Below, piece by piece: positions 1-62,285 of a stretch of 64,000 bases of DNA (positions are counted from its first letter, which is position 1; each line of letters begins with the position of its first letter). The position numbers and the translations under genes are program-made. The DNA comes from Octopus vulgaris (taxonomy: Eukaryota): the NCBI GenBank assembly GCA_951406725.2, contig OX597823.1, positions 35,898,001 to 35,962,000 of the forward strand, given 5' to 3'. The notes beneath the pieces are model-generated. The model saw only the letters and a program-made list of their open reading frames with translations, did no database searches and was not told the origin of the DNA.

Positions 1-1440
1 TAGTGACATTTGCCACATTGCTGGCACTAACATCCCCACCGGCACTATATCTCGCCTGCTTGTTGGTCCATTGTCGTCCTCTGCTTCGATTGATTTGGTT
101 ACTATGGCTACTGACCAACCCTCCCTGGACTCTCTGCACGTCTCTTCACCATAGTTTTCCTCCTGCAAGTTTGAACACCAGCCGCTACCTTTTTCTAAAG
201 GAACCATTCTTTTCGATGTTTCTACCGGGTCACCCGACCCTTCGTTCCTGAACATCACAGTCGTTTTTGAAGCACTGCATTCACTATCACACCACGGCAT
301 TGCGGCCACAGTAAAGCTTATCTCGGTCCGCTTTTTCTGGGCAAATATGCGTCGGTCTATTACTGCTTGGTCATGTGCCTGTCTACCATGTCAGTGTTCC
401 AAGGTGCATCGTCACGTGCGAGTACCCCTTGGGCACTTTCAGAAACCAGACACCAGGTTCCATCACATACACATCGACCTGGTTGGTCTTTCGTCGGTCA
501 GTTGCGGATTTACTTATATACTGACCTGCATCGACCGATTTTCCAGATGGCCTGAAGCCATCCCCCTTGTGGACATTTCCGTGGAATCGGTCGCCAGAGC
601 CCTCGTCTCCAAGTGGATAACTCGCTTCAGAGTACCCTTCGGAATTACCACCAACCGTGGACGCCAATTTGAAGCTTATCTGTTTCGTGAGCTTTCGAGA
701 TTGCTCGGAATTCAGTACATCCACACCACAAGTTACCATCCCACCTCGAACGGGATGGCGGAACGGTTCCATCGCCAGCTTAAAGCCGCTATCCGTGCTG
801 CTCCGGATCCTTATCGTTGGTCCGAGTTTCTCCCCATTGTTCAGCTGGGGTGCCGTTCATCTCTTAAGGAGGATTTAGGATACTCCTCCGTTGAACTCTT
901 GTATGGCACCACCTTGGCACTTCCTGGCTAAATGTTGGCGCCCGTCGACTTACCGAATGCAGATCCGGCATCTTATGTCACGAGACTCAGGTCATTCTTT
1001 GCTGACCTGCTACCAATGCTTCTTCGCGACCAGTCTGTTTCTTCTACAGTACCTCCTGATATTTCTACTTGGACTCACGTATTTGTAAGAAATGATGCCA
1101 TCAAGGGACCGCTCACACCTACCTACTCTGGTCCCTATCGTGTTCTTAGGAGTACACCGAAACTATTCACTGTGGACATTCACGGAAAAAGGAGACTGTC
1201 TCTATCAACAGAGTCTAAGAAAAGCCTTTTCCGAAACATTTATGCCACTTGCTGACACACCTATCATTCCACAAACACTACCACCCCTCTCCCACAAGCA
1301 CCACTTCCACTCACGAAAATACCAACTACACAAACGCATTCTACATCCCTACAGAACACGTTCTGGCAGATTAGTTCATTGGCCAAAGAAATTGTCTCAG
1401 ACTATTTACATTTCTGAACTTTGCCTTGCCAGTGACTGTT
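1..1440 (+). mobile_element. Gypsy/Ty3 LTR retrotransposon pol 3' end (RNase H tail, HHCC zinc finger, rve integrase), pseudogenised
   Basis: From nt 2: SDICHIAGTN..TISR (RNase H end). HSLSHHG..C..C zinc-binding region. ORF 347-931 has [38 protein letters not shown]. In-frame TAA at 929-931, later frameshifts, C-terminal RTRSGR. Confidence 0.92.
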
Positions 1441-9703: not shown

Positions 9704-11163
9704 TCGTGTTTATCAGTATCTACATGGGTTTTCTGAAATCTGTCCCAGGTTTTACACATGCAAAGGAAGAAACTGTGGTAAACACTCTGCAATCAAAGTT
9801 AAATTTTCTTAAAAGTTACGGATATGTTGAGAATGTATGGAGCCTACTTTTATAGCAACAAGTGTTTCCTGATACCATTCTTTCTTCCCCCTCCATTTCA
9901 TTTCTGCAATGCTAAAATGAGTCTAAAAATATTTTATCTACAAGATTATTTCTCTTTTATTATCAGAAAATGCGGAAACTGTTTTGCAAATTTATAAGTT
10001 AGCTTTCTAAACACGAATATAGTTCATGTCGGATTCGAGTGAAAGGAACAGTTCAACCACAAGGTTAAGACATTTCATGCTTTGAATATTGTTACATATA
10101 CTGAATGAGACCAACTGTGGCGTAACTTAAATTTCCTTTACACAATCATTAGTCCACCATACTATACAGCATCCATGGAAGTGATTTCAAAACATTTAAA
10201 ATAAAATGCAGTGAATTTTATGTCTGTTCTCAGAGAAATGACTGCCACGGGAGAGAAATTAATTCTTGAAATTCAATATGACAATTAGCAGTTTCTTCAC
10301 TTAAAAGCAAGTTTTCTAATTTAGTTTTCATATTTAGATAAATTCAAATTTAACAAGTTTTTCGTCTCTAGTTTTCTTTAAAATGTACGAAATAAAATTA
10401 ACTGGCGATAAATTAATTTAAATGATCAATTTTAAATAGTGAGTAATCAGCTTTTGCTATTCTTTAACAAAGATCTCAAGTATCCATTAGCTCACTTAAT
10501 TATTTTTAATGTTGAACAATATGTTCATTCCTATAAGACAGTCTCGTACACCAAAATTAATTCAACAGTTTGCTATGCATTTCAGAAAAATCAATTTCTA
10601 GAAACAAATAATATTTCTTCCTGTGCGTGAGAAGTTAACACCATGGTAGACTGGAAGATCGACTCAATATCAACAAATTATGTCTGCAACAATTGTTTAA
10701 CAGACATAAAAGTCCTGATTTAGCAGACATAAAGGCGTTCTAATTGTGACTAACCATCCTGTGTCTTTTTATATATCAGGGACTATATAATCCAAGGTTT
10801 CTTATTTAAGATGGATTGGTATGATTTGCGGGCGATTAGGATGTCGTTTCTGGCAGGTCAAATGACCATGTACATGATCCTGCGTTTGAATAATCCTTGT
10901 GAAAAGGTTCCACATTCAATCAATTCAAATGACATATAATCTAACGACAACACCTTACTATTACAGCACGAAATTATTCGCTAAATAAGCTGCTGATCTA
11001 CCTTTGGTTAATTCTAACTAAAAAACAAAACCGGAATGAACTTTGAGACCGAAGACACCACGCGATTTATGCAACTAAACTTGAAAACAGTTCTATATTT
11101 AAGAGATGAGGAATTATGCACATTATTTACATTTGACGGATATTTGTCCTCATCTTGTTTGTT

Positions 11164-11208
11164 AATACAACGTTTCGGCTGATATACCCCCAGCGTTCAT
11201 CAGGTGTC
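11164..11208 (-). ncRNA. Putative minimal hammerhead ribozyme of PLE terminal repeat
   Basis: Minus strand GACAC-CTGATGA-ac-GCTG..CAGC-c-GAAACGTT-GTATT. Related copies at 39153-39195 (+) and, degenerate, about 33300-33340 (-). Confidence 0.55.
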
Positions 11209-11828
11209 TTGGGGAAATTCTCATTCTTAAGGCATTTTTCGATATTATTATTATTCAGGTCACTGCTTGGAATCGAACTCGGAATCTTGGGATTAGTAGC
11301 CCACGCTCTTAACCACTACACCATATGCCCGTGGAGTGAATATGGAGTGAATTTTAGGGCTTATAAATCTAATATTTTCCTATCCTTCCTTAATACCGGT
11401 TCCCATATGCTATGCATATCTGCACTGTCTGCTTAGGAGGTTGTTGTGTCCTAGCATATGTGCTGCTTCTTTTAGTTTTCGTGTTTTCCACTGGTGTTCT
11501 CTGTCTATTAATTTAACTTCATCCCACAGGGGAAGGTGGTCTCCACTTTTCCATACATGATCAGCTATACCTTATTTTATCAATATCTCCTTGTGTCATG
11601 TATGGAAAAATGGAGACCACCTCCCCTTGTGGAACGAAGTTCAAATAATAGACAGCGAACACCACTGGAAAATACGAAAACTAAAAGAAGCAGCACCTTT
11701 GCTAGGACACAACATCCTCCTAAGCAGACCGAGTACAGATATGAATAACATATGGGAACCGGCATTAAGGAAAGATAGGAAAATATTAGATTTATAAGCC
11801 CTAAAATTCACTCCATATTCTCTCCACG

Positions 11829-11900
11829 GGCATATGGTGTAGTGGTTAAGAGCGTGGGCTACTAATCCCAAGATTCCGAGTTCGATTCCAAGCAGTGACC
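11829..11900 (+). ncRNA. tRNA-derived Pol III module (A and B boxes) embedded in a repeat; not a functional tRNA
   Basis: GGCATATGGTGTAGTGGTTAAGAGCGTGGG CTACTAA TCCCAAG..GAGTTCGATTCC; acceptor stem does not close. Inverted copies at about 11257-11330 and 39080-39152. Confidence 0.7.
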
Positions 11901-12828
11901 TGAATAATGATAATATCGAAAAATGCCTTAAGAATGAGAACCCAGGTTCGAAATTTCCCCAAGAAGGTATATCAGCCGAAACGTCGTATTAAGATGAGGA
12001 CAAATATCCATCAAATGTAAATAATGTAAACTTGAAAACCTTTCTTACATATTCATTGATTGGGATTTCATTGGGATTAAAATTCAAATGAATTTCAAAG
12101 TAGGATTTTCATAAAATCTTGGCTTTGGAAATGGCTCAAAGTCACCAATATATGAACCAATTAAAACAGATCTAAAGAGTTAGCCCGTTTTGTGTGGGAG
12201 TCAGAAGCAAAATAAGAGTTAAACATATTACTAAGAATCTGGAATAACGTTTTCAGAATTGGCATTATGTTCAAGATTCTTAGAAGGGCTAATCGACTAT
12301 AATACTCCACTTGTGCTTTAATAACCTCGAAAGCGTAAAAGCAAAGTTAATTTTGGAGGAATTGAACTCAGCATGTAAATAACCAGAACAAATACTTCAA
12401 TGTATTATCCGACGTTCTAAAGATTCAAGTAATCAACCTAAACTGATATCAATTCAAAGAAAGATTGTATATTAGCTAAATCATGGTTTTTCCAGCCAAA
12501 ACCGATTGCCTTTTATGATTGTATACAGTCGTTTGGGGCCACCAACGCTCCAATGATTCCCTTTGGAGGAATAAAATTAAGAGCAACCTTAATGGTATTT
12601 GACCTCAGAATATGAAGAGATGAAACTAACAGGTAACCGACTGTCTTTATCAATTTCATTGCTATTCTATAATGAATAAAATGGATCATGTTCATTTAAA
12701 ATACAATTTCTATAGGAAAAAAATCTAAATGACAACTACCAGTTTTGCACCCATTTTCATATTTCATAAAAATGCTTTCACAAGTAAATATTCTTTTACA
12801 GTTTCTAAAATCGCTTCAGGTTCGAACA

Positions 12829-24100: not shown

Positions 24101-24159
<59 letters not shown>

Positions 24160-24489
24160 ATTTATTATATAGAAGGAGCTTCTACAGGACTAGTACTGTT
24201 TCATTCAAGAGAAATCTTCAGGAAGCTATTTAACAAGAATTGTATTAGCATTTATACATTTAGAGGAGTGGTGGTGGGGGACTTTTTGGGGGTAGGCATA
24301 GCGCAAAATATCATACTTGGGGGAGTGGTCAAGGTAATAAAAAAATAAAAAAATAAAATAAAAAAATAAATAAATAAAAAATAAAAAAATAACAAGATAA
24401 AATAAAAGAATAAAAATAAAAAATATAAAAAATATAAAAAATATAAAAAATATAAAAAATATAAAAATATATATAAAAAAATATATAAT

Positions 24490-24521
<32 letters not shown>

Positions 24522-24655
24522 AAAATATATATATAAAAATATATATATATAAAAAAAGGGGGGATAGAGTTATAGGTAAATAAGGAGATTCTCACTTATA
24601 CCTATACACACATGTATACGTATCTACACACACATACGCACATACACATATATCT

Positions 24656-24694
<39 letters not shown>

Positions 24695-25153
24695 CCTACA
24701 CATACACACATACATACATACAAATATACATATACATATATATATATACAATCCAATACAGGCCCATTCCCTAATTTTAATTTTATTATCTTCATTTATT
24801 ACTTTTGTTATCTTTGATCGCTAAGGCTAAGAATCCTGGCAATAGCTGCTTGTCCGTTTGTCTGTCTACTAGAAGGCAAGTACTCATTCCCGCACGCACA
24901 CTCATTAGCACGTACATTCACCCATTCGTACACTCATACACATACACGTACGCACGCGTTATATTCATACATACAAACATCTACATACGTTCACGTATAT
25001 ACACATACGTACTCGTACCTACAGATTCGTGTCTACACTTTAGGAGGCTAGTCTATACATATACACCAATAAATATACATATATATATATATATATATAT
25101 ACCCGCATATACATACACACACACACATATATACTCCTACATACAGATACATA

Positions 25154-25195
<42 letters not shown>

Positions 25196-25397
25196 TACAT
25201 ATATATATACATATATACACATACATACACATACACACATACACACACATACATACACATATATATACATACCCAAACATATATACACACACATATATAT
25301 ACATACACACATACACACATACATACGTATACATACATACATACATCTATACATCCATACTTACATGCATTTATACGCATACACACACCCATCTATA

Positions 25398-25434
<37 letters not shown>

Positions 25435-25711
25435 TCACACATACATATACAAATCTACGCACACACATACATACATACACGTATACGCATACACGCACAT
25501 ACACATATACATGCGTACCCATACACGTGCACACACGCACGCGCATCCATATAAATACACACACACACATATATATATACACGTGTGCAAGCATACATAC
25601 ATACTCATACGCGCACACATACTTACAAATACATATATGCACACACACACACATATATATACATACACATATACATTCATACATACATATATTGATACAT
25701 ACACACACTCA

Positions 25712-25769
<58 letters not shown>

Positions 25770-26097
25770 TGTGTGTGTATGTATGCATATATGTATGTAT
25801 GCATGTATATGTGTATGTATATATATGTGTGTAAGTGTGTGCATATATGTATTTGTAAGTATGTGTGCGCGTATGTGTATGTATGTATGCTTGCGTGTGT
25901 GCACGTGTATGGGTACGCATGTATATGTGTATGTGCGTGTATGCGTATAAATGCATGTAAGTATGGATGTATAGATGTATGTATGTATGTATACGTATGT
26001 ATGTGTGTATGTGTGTATGTATATATATGTGTGTGTATATATGTTTGGGTATGTATATATATGTGTATGTATGTGTGTGTATGTGTGTATGTGTATG

Positions 26098-26165
<68 letters not shown>

Positions 26166-26626
26166 TATGTATCTGTATGTAGGAGTATATATATGTGTGT
26201 GTGTGTATGTATATGCGGGTATATATATATATATATATATGTATATTTATTGGTGTGTATATGTATAGACTAGCCTCCTAAAGTGTAGACACGAATCTGT
26301 AGGTACGAGTACGTATGTGTATATACGTGAACGTATGTAGATGTTTGTATGTATGAATATAACGCGTGCGTACGTGTATGTGTATGAGTGTACGAATGGG
26401 TGAATGTACGTGCTAATGAGTGTGCGTGCGGGAATGAGTACTTGCCTTCTAGTAGACAGACAAACGGACAAGCAGCTATTGCCAGGATTCTTAGCCTTAG
26501 CGATCAAAGATAACAAAAGTAATAAATGAAGATAATAAAATTAAAATTAGGGAATGGGCCTGTATTGGATTGTATATATATATATGTATATGTATATTTG
26601 TATGTATGTATGTGTGTATGTGTAGG

Positions 26627-26681
<55 letters not shown>

Positions 26682-26820
26682 AGATATATGTGTATGTGCG
26701 TATGTGTGTGTAGATACGTATACATGTGTGTATAGGTATAAGTGAGAATCTCCTTATTTACCTATAACTCTATCCCCCCTTTTTTTTATATATATATATT
26801 TTATATATATATTTTATATA

Positions 26821-26858
<38 letters not shown>

Positions 26859-27182
26859 TATTTTTTTATATATATTTTTATATTTTTTATATTTTTTATA
26901 TTTTTTATATTTTTTATATTTTTTATTTTTATTCTTTTATTTTATCTTGTTATTTTTTTATTTTTTATTTATTTATTTTTTTATTTTATTTTTTTATTTT
27001 TTTATTACCTTGACCACTCCCCCAAGTATGATATTTTGCGCTATGCCTACCCCCAAAAAGTCCCCCACCACCACTCCTCTAAATGTATAAATGCTAATAC
27101 AATTCTTGTTAAATAGCTTCCTGAAGATTTCTCTTGAATGAAACAGTACTAGTCCTGTAGAAGCTCCTTCTATATAATAAAT
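24160..27182. repeat. About 3 kb palindrome (arms about 1.4-1.55 kb) centred on a (TA)n tract, ending in Penelope-like terminal sequence
   Basis: 24160 to about 25715 is the reverse complement of about 25767-27182; identical peptides are predicted from 24805 (+) and 26516 (-). Confidence 0.92.
27115..27165 (+). ncRNA. Putative type I hammerhead ribozyme (mirror copy on minus strand at about 24177-24227)
   Basis: AGCTTC-CTGAAGA-tTTC tctt GAAt-GAA-ACAG tactagtc CTGT-A-GAAGCT: 6-bp stem I, 4-bp stem III, GUA site, weak stem II. Confidence 0.65.
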
Positions 27183-27291
27183 TAATTTTACTCTGCTATG
27201 TATTGAGTACCTTACTTACTGTGGTTAACCCCGAATCAACCCGGGAACTACATATATATATATATATATATATACATAAATACATACATAC

Positions 27292-27369: not shown

Positions 27370-27477
27370 TTTATAGAAGGAGCTTCTACAGGACTAGAAC
27401 TGTTTCATTCAAATGAAGATGATTTCATTTGAATGAAACAGTTCTAGTCCTGTAGAAGCTCCTTCTATAAAATAAAT
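27364..27477. repeat. Perfect 54-bp-arm hairpin of the same PLE terminal sequence
   Basis: 27364-27417 is the reverse complement of 27424-27477; loop GATGAT. Confidence 0.9.
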
Positions 27478-33200: not shown

Positions 33201-33217
33201 AACAATACAACTAAATA

Positions 33218-33390
33218 CAGTTTTGTACTTAAGAGATGAGGAATTATATACATTATTTACATTTGGCGGATATTTGTCCTCATCTTGTTTGATGTTAGCA
33301 CAACATTTTGGTCGATATACCCTCCAGCCTTCATCAAGTGTTTTGGAGAAATTTCGAACCTGAGTTCTCATTCCTAAGGTATTTTTTGAT
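33218..33390 (-). mobile_element. PLE-associated terminal repeat with decayed hammerhead
   Basis: Homologous to 11090-11245. Confidence 0.7.
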
Positions 33391-33433
33391 GTTATTGTTG
33401 TTGTTGTTGTTGTTATTACTATTATTATTATTG

Positions 33434-39046: not shown

Positions 39047-39079
<33 letters not shown>

Positions 39080-39082
<3 letters not shown>

Positions 39083-39240
39083 TCACTGCTTGGAATCGAA
39101 CTCGGAATCTTGGGACTAGAAGCCCGCGCTCTTAACCACTACGCCATATGCCCTGATGAAGGCTGGAGGGTATATCAGCCGAAACTTTGTGTTAACAACA
39201 GACAAGATGAGGACAAATATCTGTCAAATGTAAATAATAT
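39080..39240. mobile_element. Rearranged PLE terminal fragment: tRNA-like module (-) fused to hammerhead core (+)
   Basis: tRNA-like sequence 39080-39152 on the minus strand directly abuts CTGATGAAGGCTG..CAGCCGAAAC at 39153-39185. Confidence 0.7.
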
Positions 39241-39456
39241 GAATACAACTAACTATATTAAGAAAAATGTGTATGTGCGTGTATGTGCGTGTGTGTGCGT
39301 TTGTGTGCGTGTGTGTGTGCACGTGCGTATGCATGTGTGAAGTCTGTTTTGTCTCGAGGCGTTAGGTTCATTAGGCTGGAGTTTATTTAGTTTCGATTGC
39401 AATTAACTGACCGAGTACAAGACAACCACTTCTACGGGTTGCCATTCTGTCGCAGG

Positions 39457-43363: not shown

Positions 43364-43740
43364 TAATGTAAAGTATAGAAGCCATCTTATCATGGCTAAC
43401 CACAAATAGATATAAGTTTTTCTAGAAAAACTTATATCTATTTGCAAAGGAGCCTTCTCTTTCATCGCTACCTGGTGGTTACCGCCCGTTGACGAGGGAC
43501 AACAATCCCGAAACTAGTTCGAGCGTATCACTCAGGCTTGCGAGGAAGGGATGGCCCCCCTTTGCAAATACTCCAAGGACACAGATATTGTGTCGAAAGC
43601 CAGCTTGAGACGAAGATCTCTTGGGGCTATAAAGCTACAGTAACATCCCCTCCCGAATGTGGTTAGCCATGATAAGATGGCTTCTATACTTTACATTATC
43701 GAGCGATTACTGTTTCAATCTCATTCTGAGATTTAATTAT
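43364..43740. mobile_element. PLE/retrozyme-like terminal repeat with inverted partial copy, 42-bp perfect palindrome and hammerhead
   Basis: 43364-43403 is inverted at about 43658-43698. Palindrome 43403-43444. Hammerhead-like core at 43483-43525. Confidence 0.65.
43483..43525 (+). ncRNA. Putative type I hammerhead ribozyme (U3-G8 variant)
   Basis: CGCCCG-TTGACGA-GGGA caacaa TCCC-GAAAC-TA-GTT-CGAGCG; stem I extends to TTTGCAAAGG/CCTTTGCAAA. Confidence 0.6.
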
Positions 43741-44114
43741 GCTATATATATATAGTTCTATATTTAAGAGATGAGGAATAATGTACATTATTTACATCAC
43801 TTGAAAATATGCGAGCAGTAACCAGGAGCTTTTCGCATTTCGCATAAAGCTTTAAATCATCCATAAATAGATGATTTATCTAACAATATCCTTTCCCGAA
43901 ATCATAAGCTATTTTGACATTACGTAATATCAGACAGAGCGGTTTCATGGCCATTACAAATAGTAATGGAGATAAGCTATCATTTTGTCATACCGTTTCA
44001 CCCCTCTCATTACACATTCTTCATTTGTCGTTATCGGTTGTGTTGTCTATTCTACACTTCATATAGTTGCAAACATCTCTTGCGTTCACATTTTTTGCAA
44101 ACTGAATTATTAAG

Positions 44115-60075: not shown

Positions 60076-62285
60076 CACAACGTAACAATTTTCAAAAAAA
60101 AATTTGTTTATTGTATTTTTTTAACGTTCATCAATCCATTTTTTTTCTGCTGATTCCAAAAATGAAATTATTTTTTGCGTATCATCAACAGTTTAAAAAA
60201 TAGGTCGACTTTCAATGCTATTATACATTCGGTATTGTTATAATGTTTCGCTACTAAATGTATGTCTAATTTTCTCTTTCAGATCATAAGTTCTTTCAGG
60301 ATGGCTACTAGAGTATGTAAAAATTCTCTAGATACATTTTGCTATGTGTGTGGCTATTATATTGGAAAAAAAGCAGGTATTACATAAGATCGTGAAATGT
60401 GCCAAATTGTGGATAGCGTACAGACTCTATTTTGGAATGCCCATGGGTGACCAGGACAAACTATGGGCCCCACGTGTGATATGTGGAAGCTGTCGATCTA
60501 TTTTAGAAGGATGGTTAAAAGGTACAGGAAGGTCAATGCCTTTTGCCATTCCAAGGGTATGGAGAGAGCCAAAGAACCATCACGATGACTGTTACTTTTG
60601 TATGATCAATGTGACAAAGTACAGAAACGTGAAAAGAAAACTAGCTCTTCAGTATCCAGACATACCATCATCTAGAGCACTTGTCCCACATGATGACAGT
60701 CTACGAGTACCACTACCACCAGAAAATATTCCAACTGAAGAGTCAACAAGTAGCAGCAGCCAAGAAGCTTTAGTACCATGAACGACTTCGGAGCCTCACT
60801 TTCCAAATCAGAGTGAGTTAGATGATTTAATCAAAGATCTGGGTCTTACTATGTCAGGAGCTGAACTTCTTTCATCAAGGTTGAAGGAATGGAATCTACT
60901 GGGGGAAGACTGCAAGACATCTGTGTACTGGAAACACCATGAAGAATTTGAAATTTACTATGAAAATATTAATGATCTGTGTTATTGTAAAGATGTGATT
61001 AGTTTGTTTACTACTATTGGACTCAAGCATGATTCTGTAGAATGGCGACTGTTCATAGATAGATCAACACAAAGCCTTAAAGCAGTGTTGCTCCATAATG
61101 GAAATAAATATCCTTCTTTGCCTCTTGCACACTCTATACAGAAGAAAGAAAATTACGATAATGTCAAAGAACCTCTCGACAAAATAAATTACGCTGAGTT
61201 CAAGTGGATGTTTGTTGTGATTTCAAGATGCTTCCCTTCTTGCTTGGCTTGCAAAGGAGATACACAAGGTATTCGTGTTTCATTTGCTTATGGGACAGCA
61301 GAGCTGATGATGATCATTACAAGAGAGTGCATTGGCCCCCACGAGTAGAACTGCAGCCAGGAATGTTAAATGTTCTCAAACAGCCTCTAGTAGATTACAG
61401 CAAAATCTTATTACCCCCACTTCATATCAAACTCGGATTGGTAAAACAGTTTGTGAAGGTTTTAGATTTTAGAGGAGAAGCTTTTCAAGAAATTTGTCTT
61501 ATGTTTCCAAAGCTATCTGAGGCTAAGATCAAGGGTGGCATATTTGTTGGCCCCCAAGTAAATGCAATGTTAAAATCGAAGAAACTGGAAACAGCGATGA
61601 CAAAAGTTGAAAAAGAAGCTTGGTGTGCATTTCATGATGTAGTTCGTGGATTCCTAGGAAATCACAAGGATCCTAATTACAAACAGCTGATAGCAAAGCT
61701 TATTGAAAACTTCAAGAAAATGGTTTATCGTATGTCCTTAAAGGTTCATTTTTTTGCACTCTCACCTAGATTTTTCCCCGAAAGCTTGGGTGATGTCAAT
61801 GAGGAGAATGGTGAGAGATTTCCTCAGGACATCGCAATATGGAAAGAAGATACCAAGGACGATGGGATACTACTATGATGGGAGATTATATATGATCTCT
61901 AGTCAGAAGAGATGAAGGTATTACACTCCAGAAAATCTCTATCGTCCAAGCACTTCTCATCTTAAGAAAAGAGTTATCAAGGCATTTACAGTGCAGAGTT
62001 TTATTGTTTCTTTTTGTTCTAACTAATATTATACTTCCTACATACCTTTCAATATATGAAAATGTACTCAATTTTGTGAAATTATCCTTACAATACTAGA
62101 ATAGATTGAACCATCAAAGTGCTGTAGAGAAAAGTTACAAATATAACGAGCAAATATGAAATTAGGAATAAATAAATAACTATCGATGTTACGTCAAAAC
62201 GAATGTGATTTTTTTAATTTAGTGGAAAAAATGCATATATGAACATTAAAAAAATACAAATAAACAAAACATGTGTTACATTGTG
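60076..62285 (+). mobile_element. Chapaev3-type (CMC/Transib-related) DNA transposon, full length, pseudogenised
   Basis: Termini CACAACGTAACA..TGTTACATTGTG with about 100-bp imperfect TIRs; flanks TTA and CTA. Confidence 0.85.
60301..61915 (+). pseudogene. Chapaev3-type transposase, frameshifted
   Basis: MATRVCKNSLDTFCYVCG, GDQDKLWAP..C..C, WREPKNHHDDCYFC, WRLFID..SLKAVLLHNGN, CFICLWDSRA, PPLHIKLGLVKQFVK, GIFVGPQ, EENGERF.QDI. Confidence 0.88.

What the first reader, a model, noticed from the sequence alone, without database searches (positions are those of the whole stretch)
11076..12039. Foldback insertion combining a GIY-YIG tail, a tRNA-like Pol III cassette and a hammerhead, bounded by a 13-bp TSD
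Seen: two inverted arms, each ordered endonuclease C-terminus, tRNA-like A/B-box module, then hammerhead region. The core is present in the left arm and deleted in the right. The whole 938-bp unit is flanked by TAAACTTGAAAAC, yet the arms differ at many positions. Inference: a Penelope-like family carries an internal Pol III promoter just upstream of its ribozyme, which could yield a short self-cleaving SINE- or retrozyme-like RNA. The divergent arms may derive from two different template RNAs in one event.
Basis: partly seen in the sequence, partly recalled or inferred. Interest (0 to 1): 0.72.

Follow-up and report, generated by a model that had tools for sequence, protein, structure and literature searches.

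The report
Penelope retroelement carrying tRNA-type promoter
This is an old, ordinary back-to-back insertion of a very common Penelope-like jumping gene, likely in an octopus; the unusual part is a tRNA-type promoter sequence built into the element's end, which would let it spin off short SINE-like copies of itself.

Summary
The anatomy is confirmed: two head-to-head arms, each running GIY-YIG tail, stop, 30 nt, tRNA-like head with A/B boxes, (AAT)n, minimal hammerhead, between two exact 13-mers. The family is a very high-copy Penelope-like element (PLE), likely of Octopus. The foldback and a 33-nt tail on one arm only are textbook PLE features. The two-template idea is not supported: the arms share 7 minority letters and a junction variant, and their private changes look neutral (3 of 17 codons synonymous), so one source plus about 8 My of decay fits. 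The hammerhead is damaged in both arms. The tRNA-like head is joined to the endonuclease in other copies too (90 contigs, 0.82 agreement), and many copies begin at its first base. Best reading: the PLE end repeat captured a Pol III promoter about 245 nt upstream of the reverse-transcription start, so short head-to-tail copies can act as PLE-mobilised SINEs. Pol III transcription is untested, and a hairpin at the junction may explain part of the 5' clustering. Ten literature searches found no such PLE; Repbase/Dfam and the 1994 octopus SINE paper were not seen.

The parts
11076..11088 (+). Left 13-bp target-site duplication (last 2 letters also fit the element's 3' end)
11087..11119 (-). 33-nt PLE 'tail', on the left arm only; between the two family-wide 3' end clusters (11087 and 11113-11120)
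   Evidence: table 7
11120..11161 (-). 3' region after the hammerhead; likely start of the PLE ORF and RT initiation region
   Evidence: weak match to N-terminus of P0013; analogy to PMC11167929
11162..11208 (-). Minimal type I hammerhead: CUGAUGA 11203-11197, GAAAC-GUU, palindromic helix III; stem II closing pair and one stem I pair broken in this copy
11255..11330 (-). tRNA-like head, left arm; A box 11323-11313, B box 11280-11269
11331..11360 (-). 30-nt spacer ending in an imperfect inverted copy of the head's first 10 bases plus AC
11361..11599 (-). 3' end of the PLE ORF (GIY-YIG endonuclease C-terminus), frameshifted, left arm
11596..11797 (+). 3' end of the PLE ORF, right arm, 66 open codons to TAA; TCAT overlap with the left arm at 11596-11599
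11828..11903 (+). tRNA-like head, right arm; A box 11835-11845, B box 11878-11889
11904..11951 (+). (AAT)n linker and candidate ORF start codon (ATG 11934-11936)
11952..12030 (+). Hammerhead region with 17-nt deletion of CUGAUGA and stem II, 7-nt deletion after the cut site; ends at the tail-less family 3' end
12027..12039 (+). Right 13-bp target-site duplication (first 4 letters also fit the element)
39066..39245 (.). Second family copy without endonuclease: head on minus strand starting exactly at G1 (39153), joined by CC microhomology to the hammerhead core and 3' end on plus strand
33207..33402 (-). Older 5'-truncated family copy, (AAT)n to tail; 55 open codons from the ATG through the hammerhead
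43754..43797 (-). 44-nt 3' tip of the family, with tail

Best explanation
[quoted passage not shown] Shown: the anatomy, the head-endonuclease junction in other copies, 5' ends clustering at the head's first base, two 3' end clusters 33 nt apart. Inferred: the PLE protein starts reverse transcription inside the RNA about 210 and 245 nt downstream of the head's first base, so any transcript starting at the head holds both promoter and RT start, and a lone 244-nt copy can spread again. The minimal hammerhead between them likely stays uncut as a monomer. This locus likely arose when both cut target strands were primed, one at each start site, on RNA from one source element, and the two cDNAs were joined at a 4-nt overlap; the arms then decayed separately.
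For: EN peptide 81% identical to an O. vulgaris protein and 66% to the C-terminus of an 806-aa RT protein whose last domain scores 0.95 to GIY-YIG clusters. 90 contigs leaving the EN side at 11817 continue with the head, agreement 0.82. Contigs with mixed upstream flanks start at 11824 (125), 11828 (48), 11831 (33); 10 of the 15 joints shown (of 617) have one side at the head's first bases, 8 of them joined to another part of the element; the copy at 39153 starts at G1. G1 is where tRNA numbering puts +1 from the A box (T8, A14). Head bins carry 2.7-3.8 times the summed contig depth of EN bins on the left arm in 4 of 4 runs (not a copy number). 3' ends cluster at 11087 (311 contigs) and 11113/11120 (141/223) in X1, matching the PLE tail and two RT start sites (PMC8557442 section 6; PMC11167929). 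Arms share 7 minority letters; 18 listed private letters are rare in the pool; 3 of 17 changed codons synonymous against 19% neutral.
Against: No test of transcription. Rfam and ARAGORN give no tRNA hit, and acceptor and T stems do not pair. The consensus of the 11824 and 11828 loose ends is an inverted copy of the head, which snap-back at the junction hairpin of long transcripts would also give. Lack of a TTTT terminator in the 244-nt unit is not significant (3959 of 5000 shuffles also lack one). No full-length element of this exact family was seen, and the N-terminal peptide search found nothing. Only 6 of the X1 loose-end rows were shown (204 rows hidden), so the share of EN ends lacking the head is not measured.
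Confidence: 0.58

Rival explanations
1. The head is a fixed but passive passenger in the PLE end repeat: the element is read by Pol II from tandem copies, and 5' ends pile up at the head because the cDNA snaps back at the built-in hairpin (inverted head + AC + head). Short copies are dead truncations, not a SINE lineage.
For: The largest loose-end classes (11824: 125 contigs; 11828: 48) end in the inverted first bases of the head. This also explains the depth step. B box shows the same CpG decay as the rest (11883, 11884). PLEs are known to be heavily 5'-truncated (PMC8557442).
Against: 8 of 15 shown joints and the 39153 copy join the head's start to other parts of the element, which snap-back at the hairpin does not give. 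The junction hairpin itself looks like the scar of a cDNA that ended at G1. Both boxes are intact in 3 of 3 window copies.
Confidence: 0.25
2. An independent tRNA-derived SINE with a PLE-derived 3' end came first, and the EN-linked form is a secondary chimera (template switch or insertion behind a PLE stop codon) that was amplified but is not the autonomous driver.
For: Heads outweigh EN ends in contig depth. The junction has an insertion-like scar. Capture of a SINE into a terminal repeat is the origin proposed for Helenus, Ajax and Cassandra (PMC10886601 passages).
Against: EN ends mostly continue into the head at one junction, and EN depth is flat over about 200 nt at thousands of times the flank depth. 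An open frame runs from the ATG through the hammerhead as in the anole PLE (weak).
Confidence: 0.12
3. The two arms were copied from two different template RNAs (different subfamilies) in one event.
For: 5.5% difference plus 4 indels; differences look uneven (17 of 168, 3 of 173, 5 of 79); the right arm holds 12 of the 18 listed private letters.
Against: Unevenness not significant after scanning (25 of 300 permutations); 7 shared minority letters plus a shared junction variant; private letters at 0.2-14% of pool depth; 3 of 17 codon changes synonymous, P=1.0 against neutral and P=0.013 against 50%. Two RNA molecules from one source element are not excluded.
Confidence: 0.08

Closest known systems
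Penelope/Poseidon PLEs, e.g. Poseidon_Ac of the green anole (PMC11167929, parts 1-2 of 4 read; PMC8557442 section 6)
   Same: C-terminal GIY-YIG, minimal hammerhead at the ORF start, two 3' ends about 33 nt apart with the tail on one side, inverted 5'-truncated copy, AT-rich target.
   Different: A tRNA-like head with A/B boxes between stop codon and hammerhead; the passages read describe no Pol III promoter in a pLTR.
TRIMp3 elements Helenus, Ajax, Cassandra (PMC10886601, passages)
   Same: A small-RNA-derived Pol III promoter captured inside a retroelement's terminal repeat, boxes kept and fold lost.
   Different: Those are non-coding LTR elements with PBS/PPT and 4-5 bp TSDs; here the host is a coding PLE with a ribozyme and no true LTR.
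Schistosome Sm-alpha / Sj-alpha SINE-like hammerhead repeats (via review PMC6765202, passages; primary papers not read)
   Same: Pol III-type promoter followed by a hammerhead in a short high-copy retroposon.
   Different: Described as tandem, cleaving, with no PLE ORF attached; here the unit is physically the end of a PLE ORF and the ribozyme is the minimal PLE type.
Animal non-LTR retrozymes (bioRxiv 10.64898/2026.07.22.740005, parts 1-2 of 5 plus term search)
   Same: Non-coding pLTR derivatives with type I hammerheads thought to ride on PLEs.
   Different: Defined by head-to-tail tandems; that preprint has 0 mentions of tRNA, promoter or polymerase III. Here arms are inverted and carry coding sequence.
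Octopus tRNA-derived SINEs of Ohshima and Okada 1994 (seen only as a citation)
   Same: tRNA-derived retroposon heads in octopus; this head may be one of them.
   Different: Could not be compared; OR2 is cited as a CORE SINE (PMC4758252 passage), and no CORE-type body was looked for or evident here.

Membership tests
EN+ Penelope-like element | Single ORF with RT followed by C-terminal GIY-YIG endonuclease | tested here: met
   By relatives only: window peptide 66% identical to residues 743-803 of P0013 (806 aa, RVT_1 E=1e-08; last domain 0.95 to GIY-YIG clusters); Octopus P0006 links thumb to EN. The window holds only the EN end.
EN+ Penelope-like element | Minimal type I hammerhead in the end repeat | tested here: met
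   Core, extra nucleotide before stem II, palindromic AACGUU; stem II fully paired in the 39153 copy, broken in this insertion. No Rfam hammerhead hit.
EN+ Penelope-like element | Inverted 5'-truncated copy and 30-40 bp tail at one end | tested here: met
EN+ Penelope-like element | Partial tandem pLTR-ORF-pLTR in full-length copies | not testable with these tools
   No genome held; scans gave no loci.
EN+ Penelope-like element | Clade placement by RT phylogeny | not tested
   No tree built; Penelope/Poseidon is an inference from domain order and layout.
tRNA-derived SINE (SINEBase definition, PMC3531059) | Shorter than 700 bp with internal A and B boxes at the 5' end | tested here: met
   244-nt head-to-tail unit, boxes in tRNA register.
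tRNA-derived SINE (SINEBase definition, PMC3531059) | Head descends from a tRNA gene | tested here: inconclusive
   Register and anticodon-like loop fit; Rfam/ARAGORN negative; no host tRNA set to compare; phage tRNA-Gln hits at E=8 are noise.
tRNA-derived SINE (SINEBase definition, PMC3531059) | Transcribed by Pol III | not testable with these tools
   Only contigs were offered.
tRNA-derived SINE (SINEBase definition, PMC3531059) | Reverse-transcribed by a partner LINE, with a simple-repeat 3' tail | tested here: not met
   3' end is the PLE end with two start sites; the simple repeat is internal. It may work like a SINE but is not one by this definition.
tRNA-derived SINE (SINEBase definition, PMC3531059) | Short copies form a self-propagating non-autonomous lineage | tested here: inconclusive
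   Many copies start at the head, but their source transcript cannot be told from contigs.
Non-LTR retrozyme | Two or more head-to-tail units each with an intact hammerhead, non-coding | tested here: not met
   Inverted arms with coding sequence, damaged ribozymes; 0 of 4 window insertions tandem.
TRIMp3 (Helenus) | Two direct LTRs with PBS/PPT and 4-5 bp TSD | tested here: not met
   Inverted arms, 13-bp duplication.

The most novel reading that the evidence does not exclude
An autonomous Penelope-like element has taken a tRNA-derived Pol III promoter into its end repeat, and because PLE reverse transcription starts internally, each lone end repeat is a complete parasite: a tRNA-headed, hammerhead-carrying SINE equivalent mobilised by a PLE rather than a LINE, present in thousands to tens of thousands of copies in octopus, with parent and offspring still physically joined.
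Probability: 0.45. Interest if true: 0.72.

Novelty: new variant of a known kind. Interest (0 to 1): 0.52.

Why it matters
SINEs are defined as passengers of LINEs (PMC3531059). A tRNA-headed short element that rides a telomerase-related PLE would widen that rule and show a direct route from an autonomous element to its own SINE. It gives a 244-nt natural substrate holding promoter, ribozyme and RT start for the new in vitro PLE system (PMC11167929), which makes the open question of what the PLE hammerhead does testable: cutting would part promoter from RT start. It may also account for part of the large unclassified SINE share in O. vulgaris (893 of 900 recently active SINE families unclassified, PMC13282606 Table 1); that link is a guess. 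The single insertion itself is old and ordinary.

Tried and rejected
No genome held. Rfam on the whole window and two small stretches, and ARAGORN: no tRNA or hammerhead hit in the element; the MIR2630 hit is just the foldback. MFE folding gave no cloverleaf or hammerhead fold better than shuffles; cofolded dimers paired through the palindrome region but no active double hammerhead was shown. Pfam found nothing on the arm peptides and only a sub-threshold TBC1D23_C hit on P0001. Pattern and protein scans of metagenome, viral and prokaryote collections: 0 loci. Head against phages: 5 hits at E 2-8, noise. N-terminal peptide search: none. TTTT-absence test not significant. Gene conversion between arms considered; unevenness 25 of 300 permutations, not established. 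One search tested 4 of 17 synonymous by a typing slip; the count is 3 of 17, redone. No RNA holder listed; X11 (RNA only by guess) gave 9 contigs, none 99% alike, no evidence either way. Empty site: no 11088-12040 joint among 15 shown of 617; flank contigs run 24 letters into the element with no mismatch (left 3 of 4 runs, right 4 of 4), short of the tool's 31-letter bar. My note said all four runs carry both junctions; X10's left contig stops at 11031. Summed contig depth is not a copy number; used only as a rough ratio. Earlier-findings look-ups by sequence and by words returned nothing.

Full report
Observation. The 938 bp between two exact copies of TAAACTTGAAAAC (11076, 12027; only 2 in 64 kb, 0 of 100 shuffles reach 2) are two head-to-head arms: left on the minus strand 11599 to 11087, right on the plus strand 11596 to 12030, overlapping by TCAT. 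Each reads endonuclease C-terminus, TAA, 30 nt, tRNA-like head, (AAT)n, hammerhead region, 3' end. Two letters of the left 13-mer and four of the right also fit the element, so 7 letters are unambiguous duplication. The arms differ at 23 of 418 aligned positions plus indels of 2, 13, 17 and 7 nt. The 17-nt deletion removes CUGAUGA on the right. The left core is complete, but the pair closing stem II is C-C and stem I has a mismatch, so neither ribozyme is likely active.

The coding part. The right arm has 66 open codons, 81% identical to an Octopus vulgaris predicted protein and 66% identical to residues 743-803 of P0013, an 806-aa protein with RVT_1 whose last domain scores 0.95 to GIY-YIG clusters, 10 of 10 best family hits agreeing (scores not calibrated for parts). 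An O. sinensis protein (P0006) links this end to the RT thumb region. 191 cluster representatives match at E up to 0.001. The host is therefore likely an octopus and the element an EN+ PLE; Penelope/Poseidon is inferred from layout, no tree was built. In the copy at 33207-33371 a 55-codon frame runs from an ATG through the hammerhead to the 3' end, with a weak match to the start of P0013 (12 of 300 shuffles as good; left arm 6 of 300); a search with it found nothing. This fits the anole PLE, where the hammerhead and RT start sites lie in the first part of the ORF (PMC11167929, parts 1-2 of 4).

Family view. No genome was held, so I laid contigs of 5 of the 24 listed runs. Summed contig depth over the element is thousands of times that of the flanks in 4 of 4 DNA runs; the tool warns this is no copy number. 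3' ends cluster at 11087 (311 contigs in X1) and 11113/11120 (141/223); the right arm ends at the second cluster (12030; 153 contigs in X6). So the left arm has a 33-nt tail and the right arm lacks it. Inverted 5'-truncated copies and a 30-40 bp tail on one end are described as typical of PLEs (PMC8557442, section 6). The foldback is thus ordinary.

Is the head part of the PLE? Yes, as far as contigs show: 90 contigs leaving the EN side at 11817 continue with the head, agreement 0.82, and 48 contigs in X8 show the same from the other arm, 0.69. 204 loose-end rows were hidden, so the share of EN ends without the head is not measured. The head has A and B boxes in tRNA register (T8, A14); the pattern matched 3 times in the window and 0 times in 100 shuffles, though I wrote it after seeing the sequence, from recalled box consensus. 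Rfam and ARAGORN do not call it and its acceptor and T stems do not pair, as reported for other captured promoters (PMC10886601 passages). The parent tRNA is not determined.

Do short copies start at the head? Contigs with mixed upstream flanks begin at 11824 (125; agreement 0.43), 11828 (48; 0.40) and 11831 (33; 0.38). Ten of the 15 joints shown (of 617) have one side at the head's first bases, 8 of them joined to another part of the element and 2 head-to-head. The window copy at 39066-39245 has no EN, and its head starts exactly at G1. Head bins carry 2.7-3.8 times the depth of EN bins on the left arm. Against a simple reading: the 11824 and 11828 consensus ends in an inverted copy of the head's first bases, and the PLE junction itself is such a hairpin, so snap-back on long transcripts could make those classes and the depth step. 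It would not make the 8 joints or the 39153 copy. Lack of TTTT in the 244-nt unit is not significant (3959 of 5000 shuffles).

One template or two? The arms share 7 letters that are in the minority of the contig pool (shares 0.03-0.39) and a junction variant; the 18 private letters listed are rare (0.002-0.14) (only the 40 shown rows per call could be used). Three of 17 changed codons are synonymous against 19% expected without selection; different active templates would be enriched for synonymous changes. Unevenness along the arms is not significant (25 of 300). At the rate used in PMC13282606 (0.0036 per My) the arms date to about 8 My (rough). Flank contigs run unbroken into the element in 3 of 4 (left) and 4 of 4 (right) runs, by 24 letters; no empty site was seen. 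Because each arm ends at one of the two family 3' ends, priming from both target strands (shown in vitro for the anole PLE) fits better than copying of one cDNA; two RNA molecules of one source element remain possible.

Mechanism. Shown: anatomy, fixed junction, end clusters. Inferred: a tRNA-headed cDNA once landed behind the stop codon, leaving the hairpin scar; Pol III can then start at the head; the transcript holds the RT start sites about 210 and 245 nt downstream; PLE protein copies it into AT-rich DNA, giving lone end repeats that can spread again. The minimal hammerhead is thought to need a dimer (PMC4209133, part 1 of 4) or the PLE protein, and cleavage is not needed for insertion in vitro (PMC11167929), so the short RNA more likely stays whole than self-cleaves. 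Confidence 0.58; passive passenger 0.25; SINE-first chimera 0.12.

Comparison and novelty. It meets the PLE features I could test. It fails the SINE definition on partner and tail (PMC3531059 passages), and fails retrozyme and TRIMp3 definitions. Pol III promoter plus hammerhead is known from schistosome repeats (PMC6765202 passages), promoter capture into a terminal repeat from Helenus/Ajax/Cassandra, and PLE-dependent pLTR derivatives from the 2026 preprint (parts 1-2 of 5, term search). Ten searches listed no paper describing a tRNA-type promoter in a PLE end repeat; most hits were seen as listings only. PMC13282606 (parts 1-2 of 3, supplement term search), PMC8967140 and PMC4758252 (passages) did not describe it. 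Repbase, Dfam and Ohshima and Okada 1994 were not seen, so the sequence may be catalogued. Two earlier AI notes in this scan reached similar readings; they are not independent evidence.

Verdict. Observation confirmed; interpretation partly supported. New variant of a known kind, interest 0.52; the PLE-mobilised SINE-equivalent reading has probability 0.45 and would merit 0.72.

Noticed in passing
window 14730-12832, minus strand: A 632-codon single frame with an N-terminal BTB domain (PF00651, E=5.7e-12) ends about 790 bp from the insertion, which may thus lie in or near its 3' UTR; a 420-bp foldback there would form double-stranded RNA, a possible editing substrate. Untested.
   Followed up: partly
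window 43471-43541, plus strand: Hammerhead HH9-like Rfam match (31.2 bits, below the 52-bit cut-off, E=7e-4), unrelated in sequence to this family, next to a (TA)n tract and 210 bp from a 3' tip of this family.
   Followed up: no
window 43381-43423 and 43654-43699: An inverted repeat of about 45 bp brackets the HH9-like motif (seen), suggesting a second PLE- or retrozyme-type inverted insertion.
   Followed up: no
window 24152-27190: A 3-kb foldback with arms 96-99% alike around (TA/CA)n-rich DNA, much younger than the one studied; CTGAAGA...GAAAC motifs at 24221 (minus) and 27121 (plus).
   Followed up: no
window 27370-27471: A near-perfect 102-nt palindrome related to the arms above.
   Followed up: no
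window 38241-34537, 52621-50131, 55262-53844, 47901-45583, minus strand: Long frames that look like non-LTR retrotransposon RT/endonuclease genes (up to 813 codons); family not tested.
   Followed up: no
window 30519-29458 (minus), 60332-61875 (plus), 155-928 (plus): Frames resembling a mariner transposase, another DNA transposase and an LTR integrase (names from recall).
   Followed up: no
P0001 residues 2-16 and P0020 residues 1-32: Database proteins of this and a sister family begin with the antisense reading of the 3' end or hammerhead, meaning their loci are also inverted-pair insertions and their starts are mis-predicted.
   Followed up: partly
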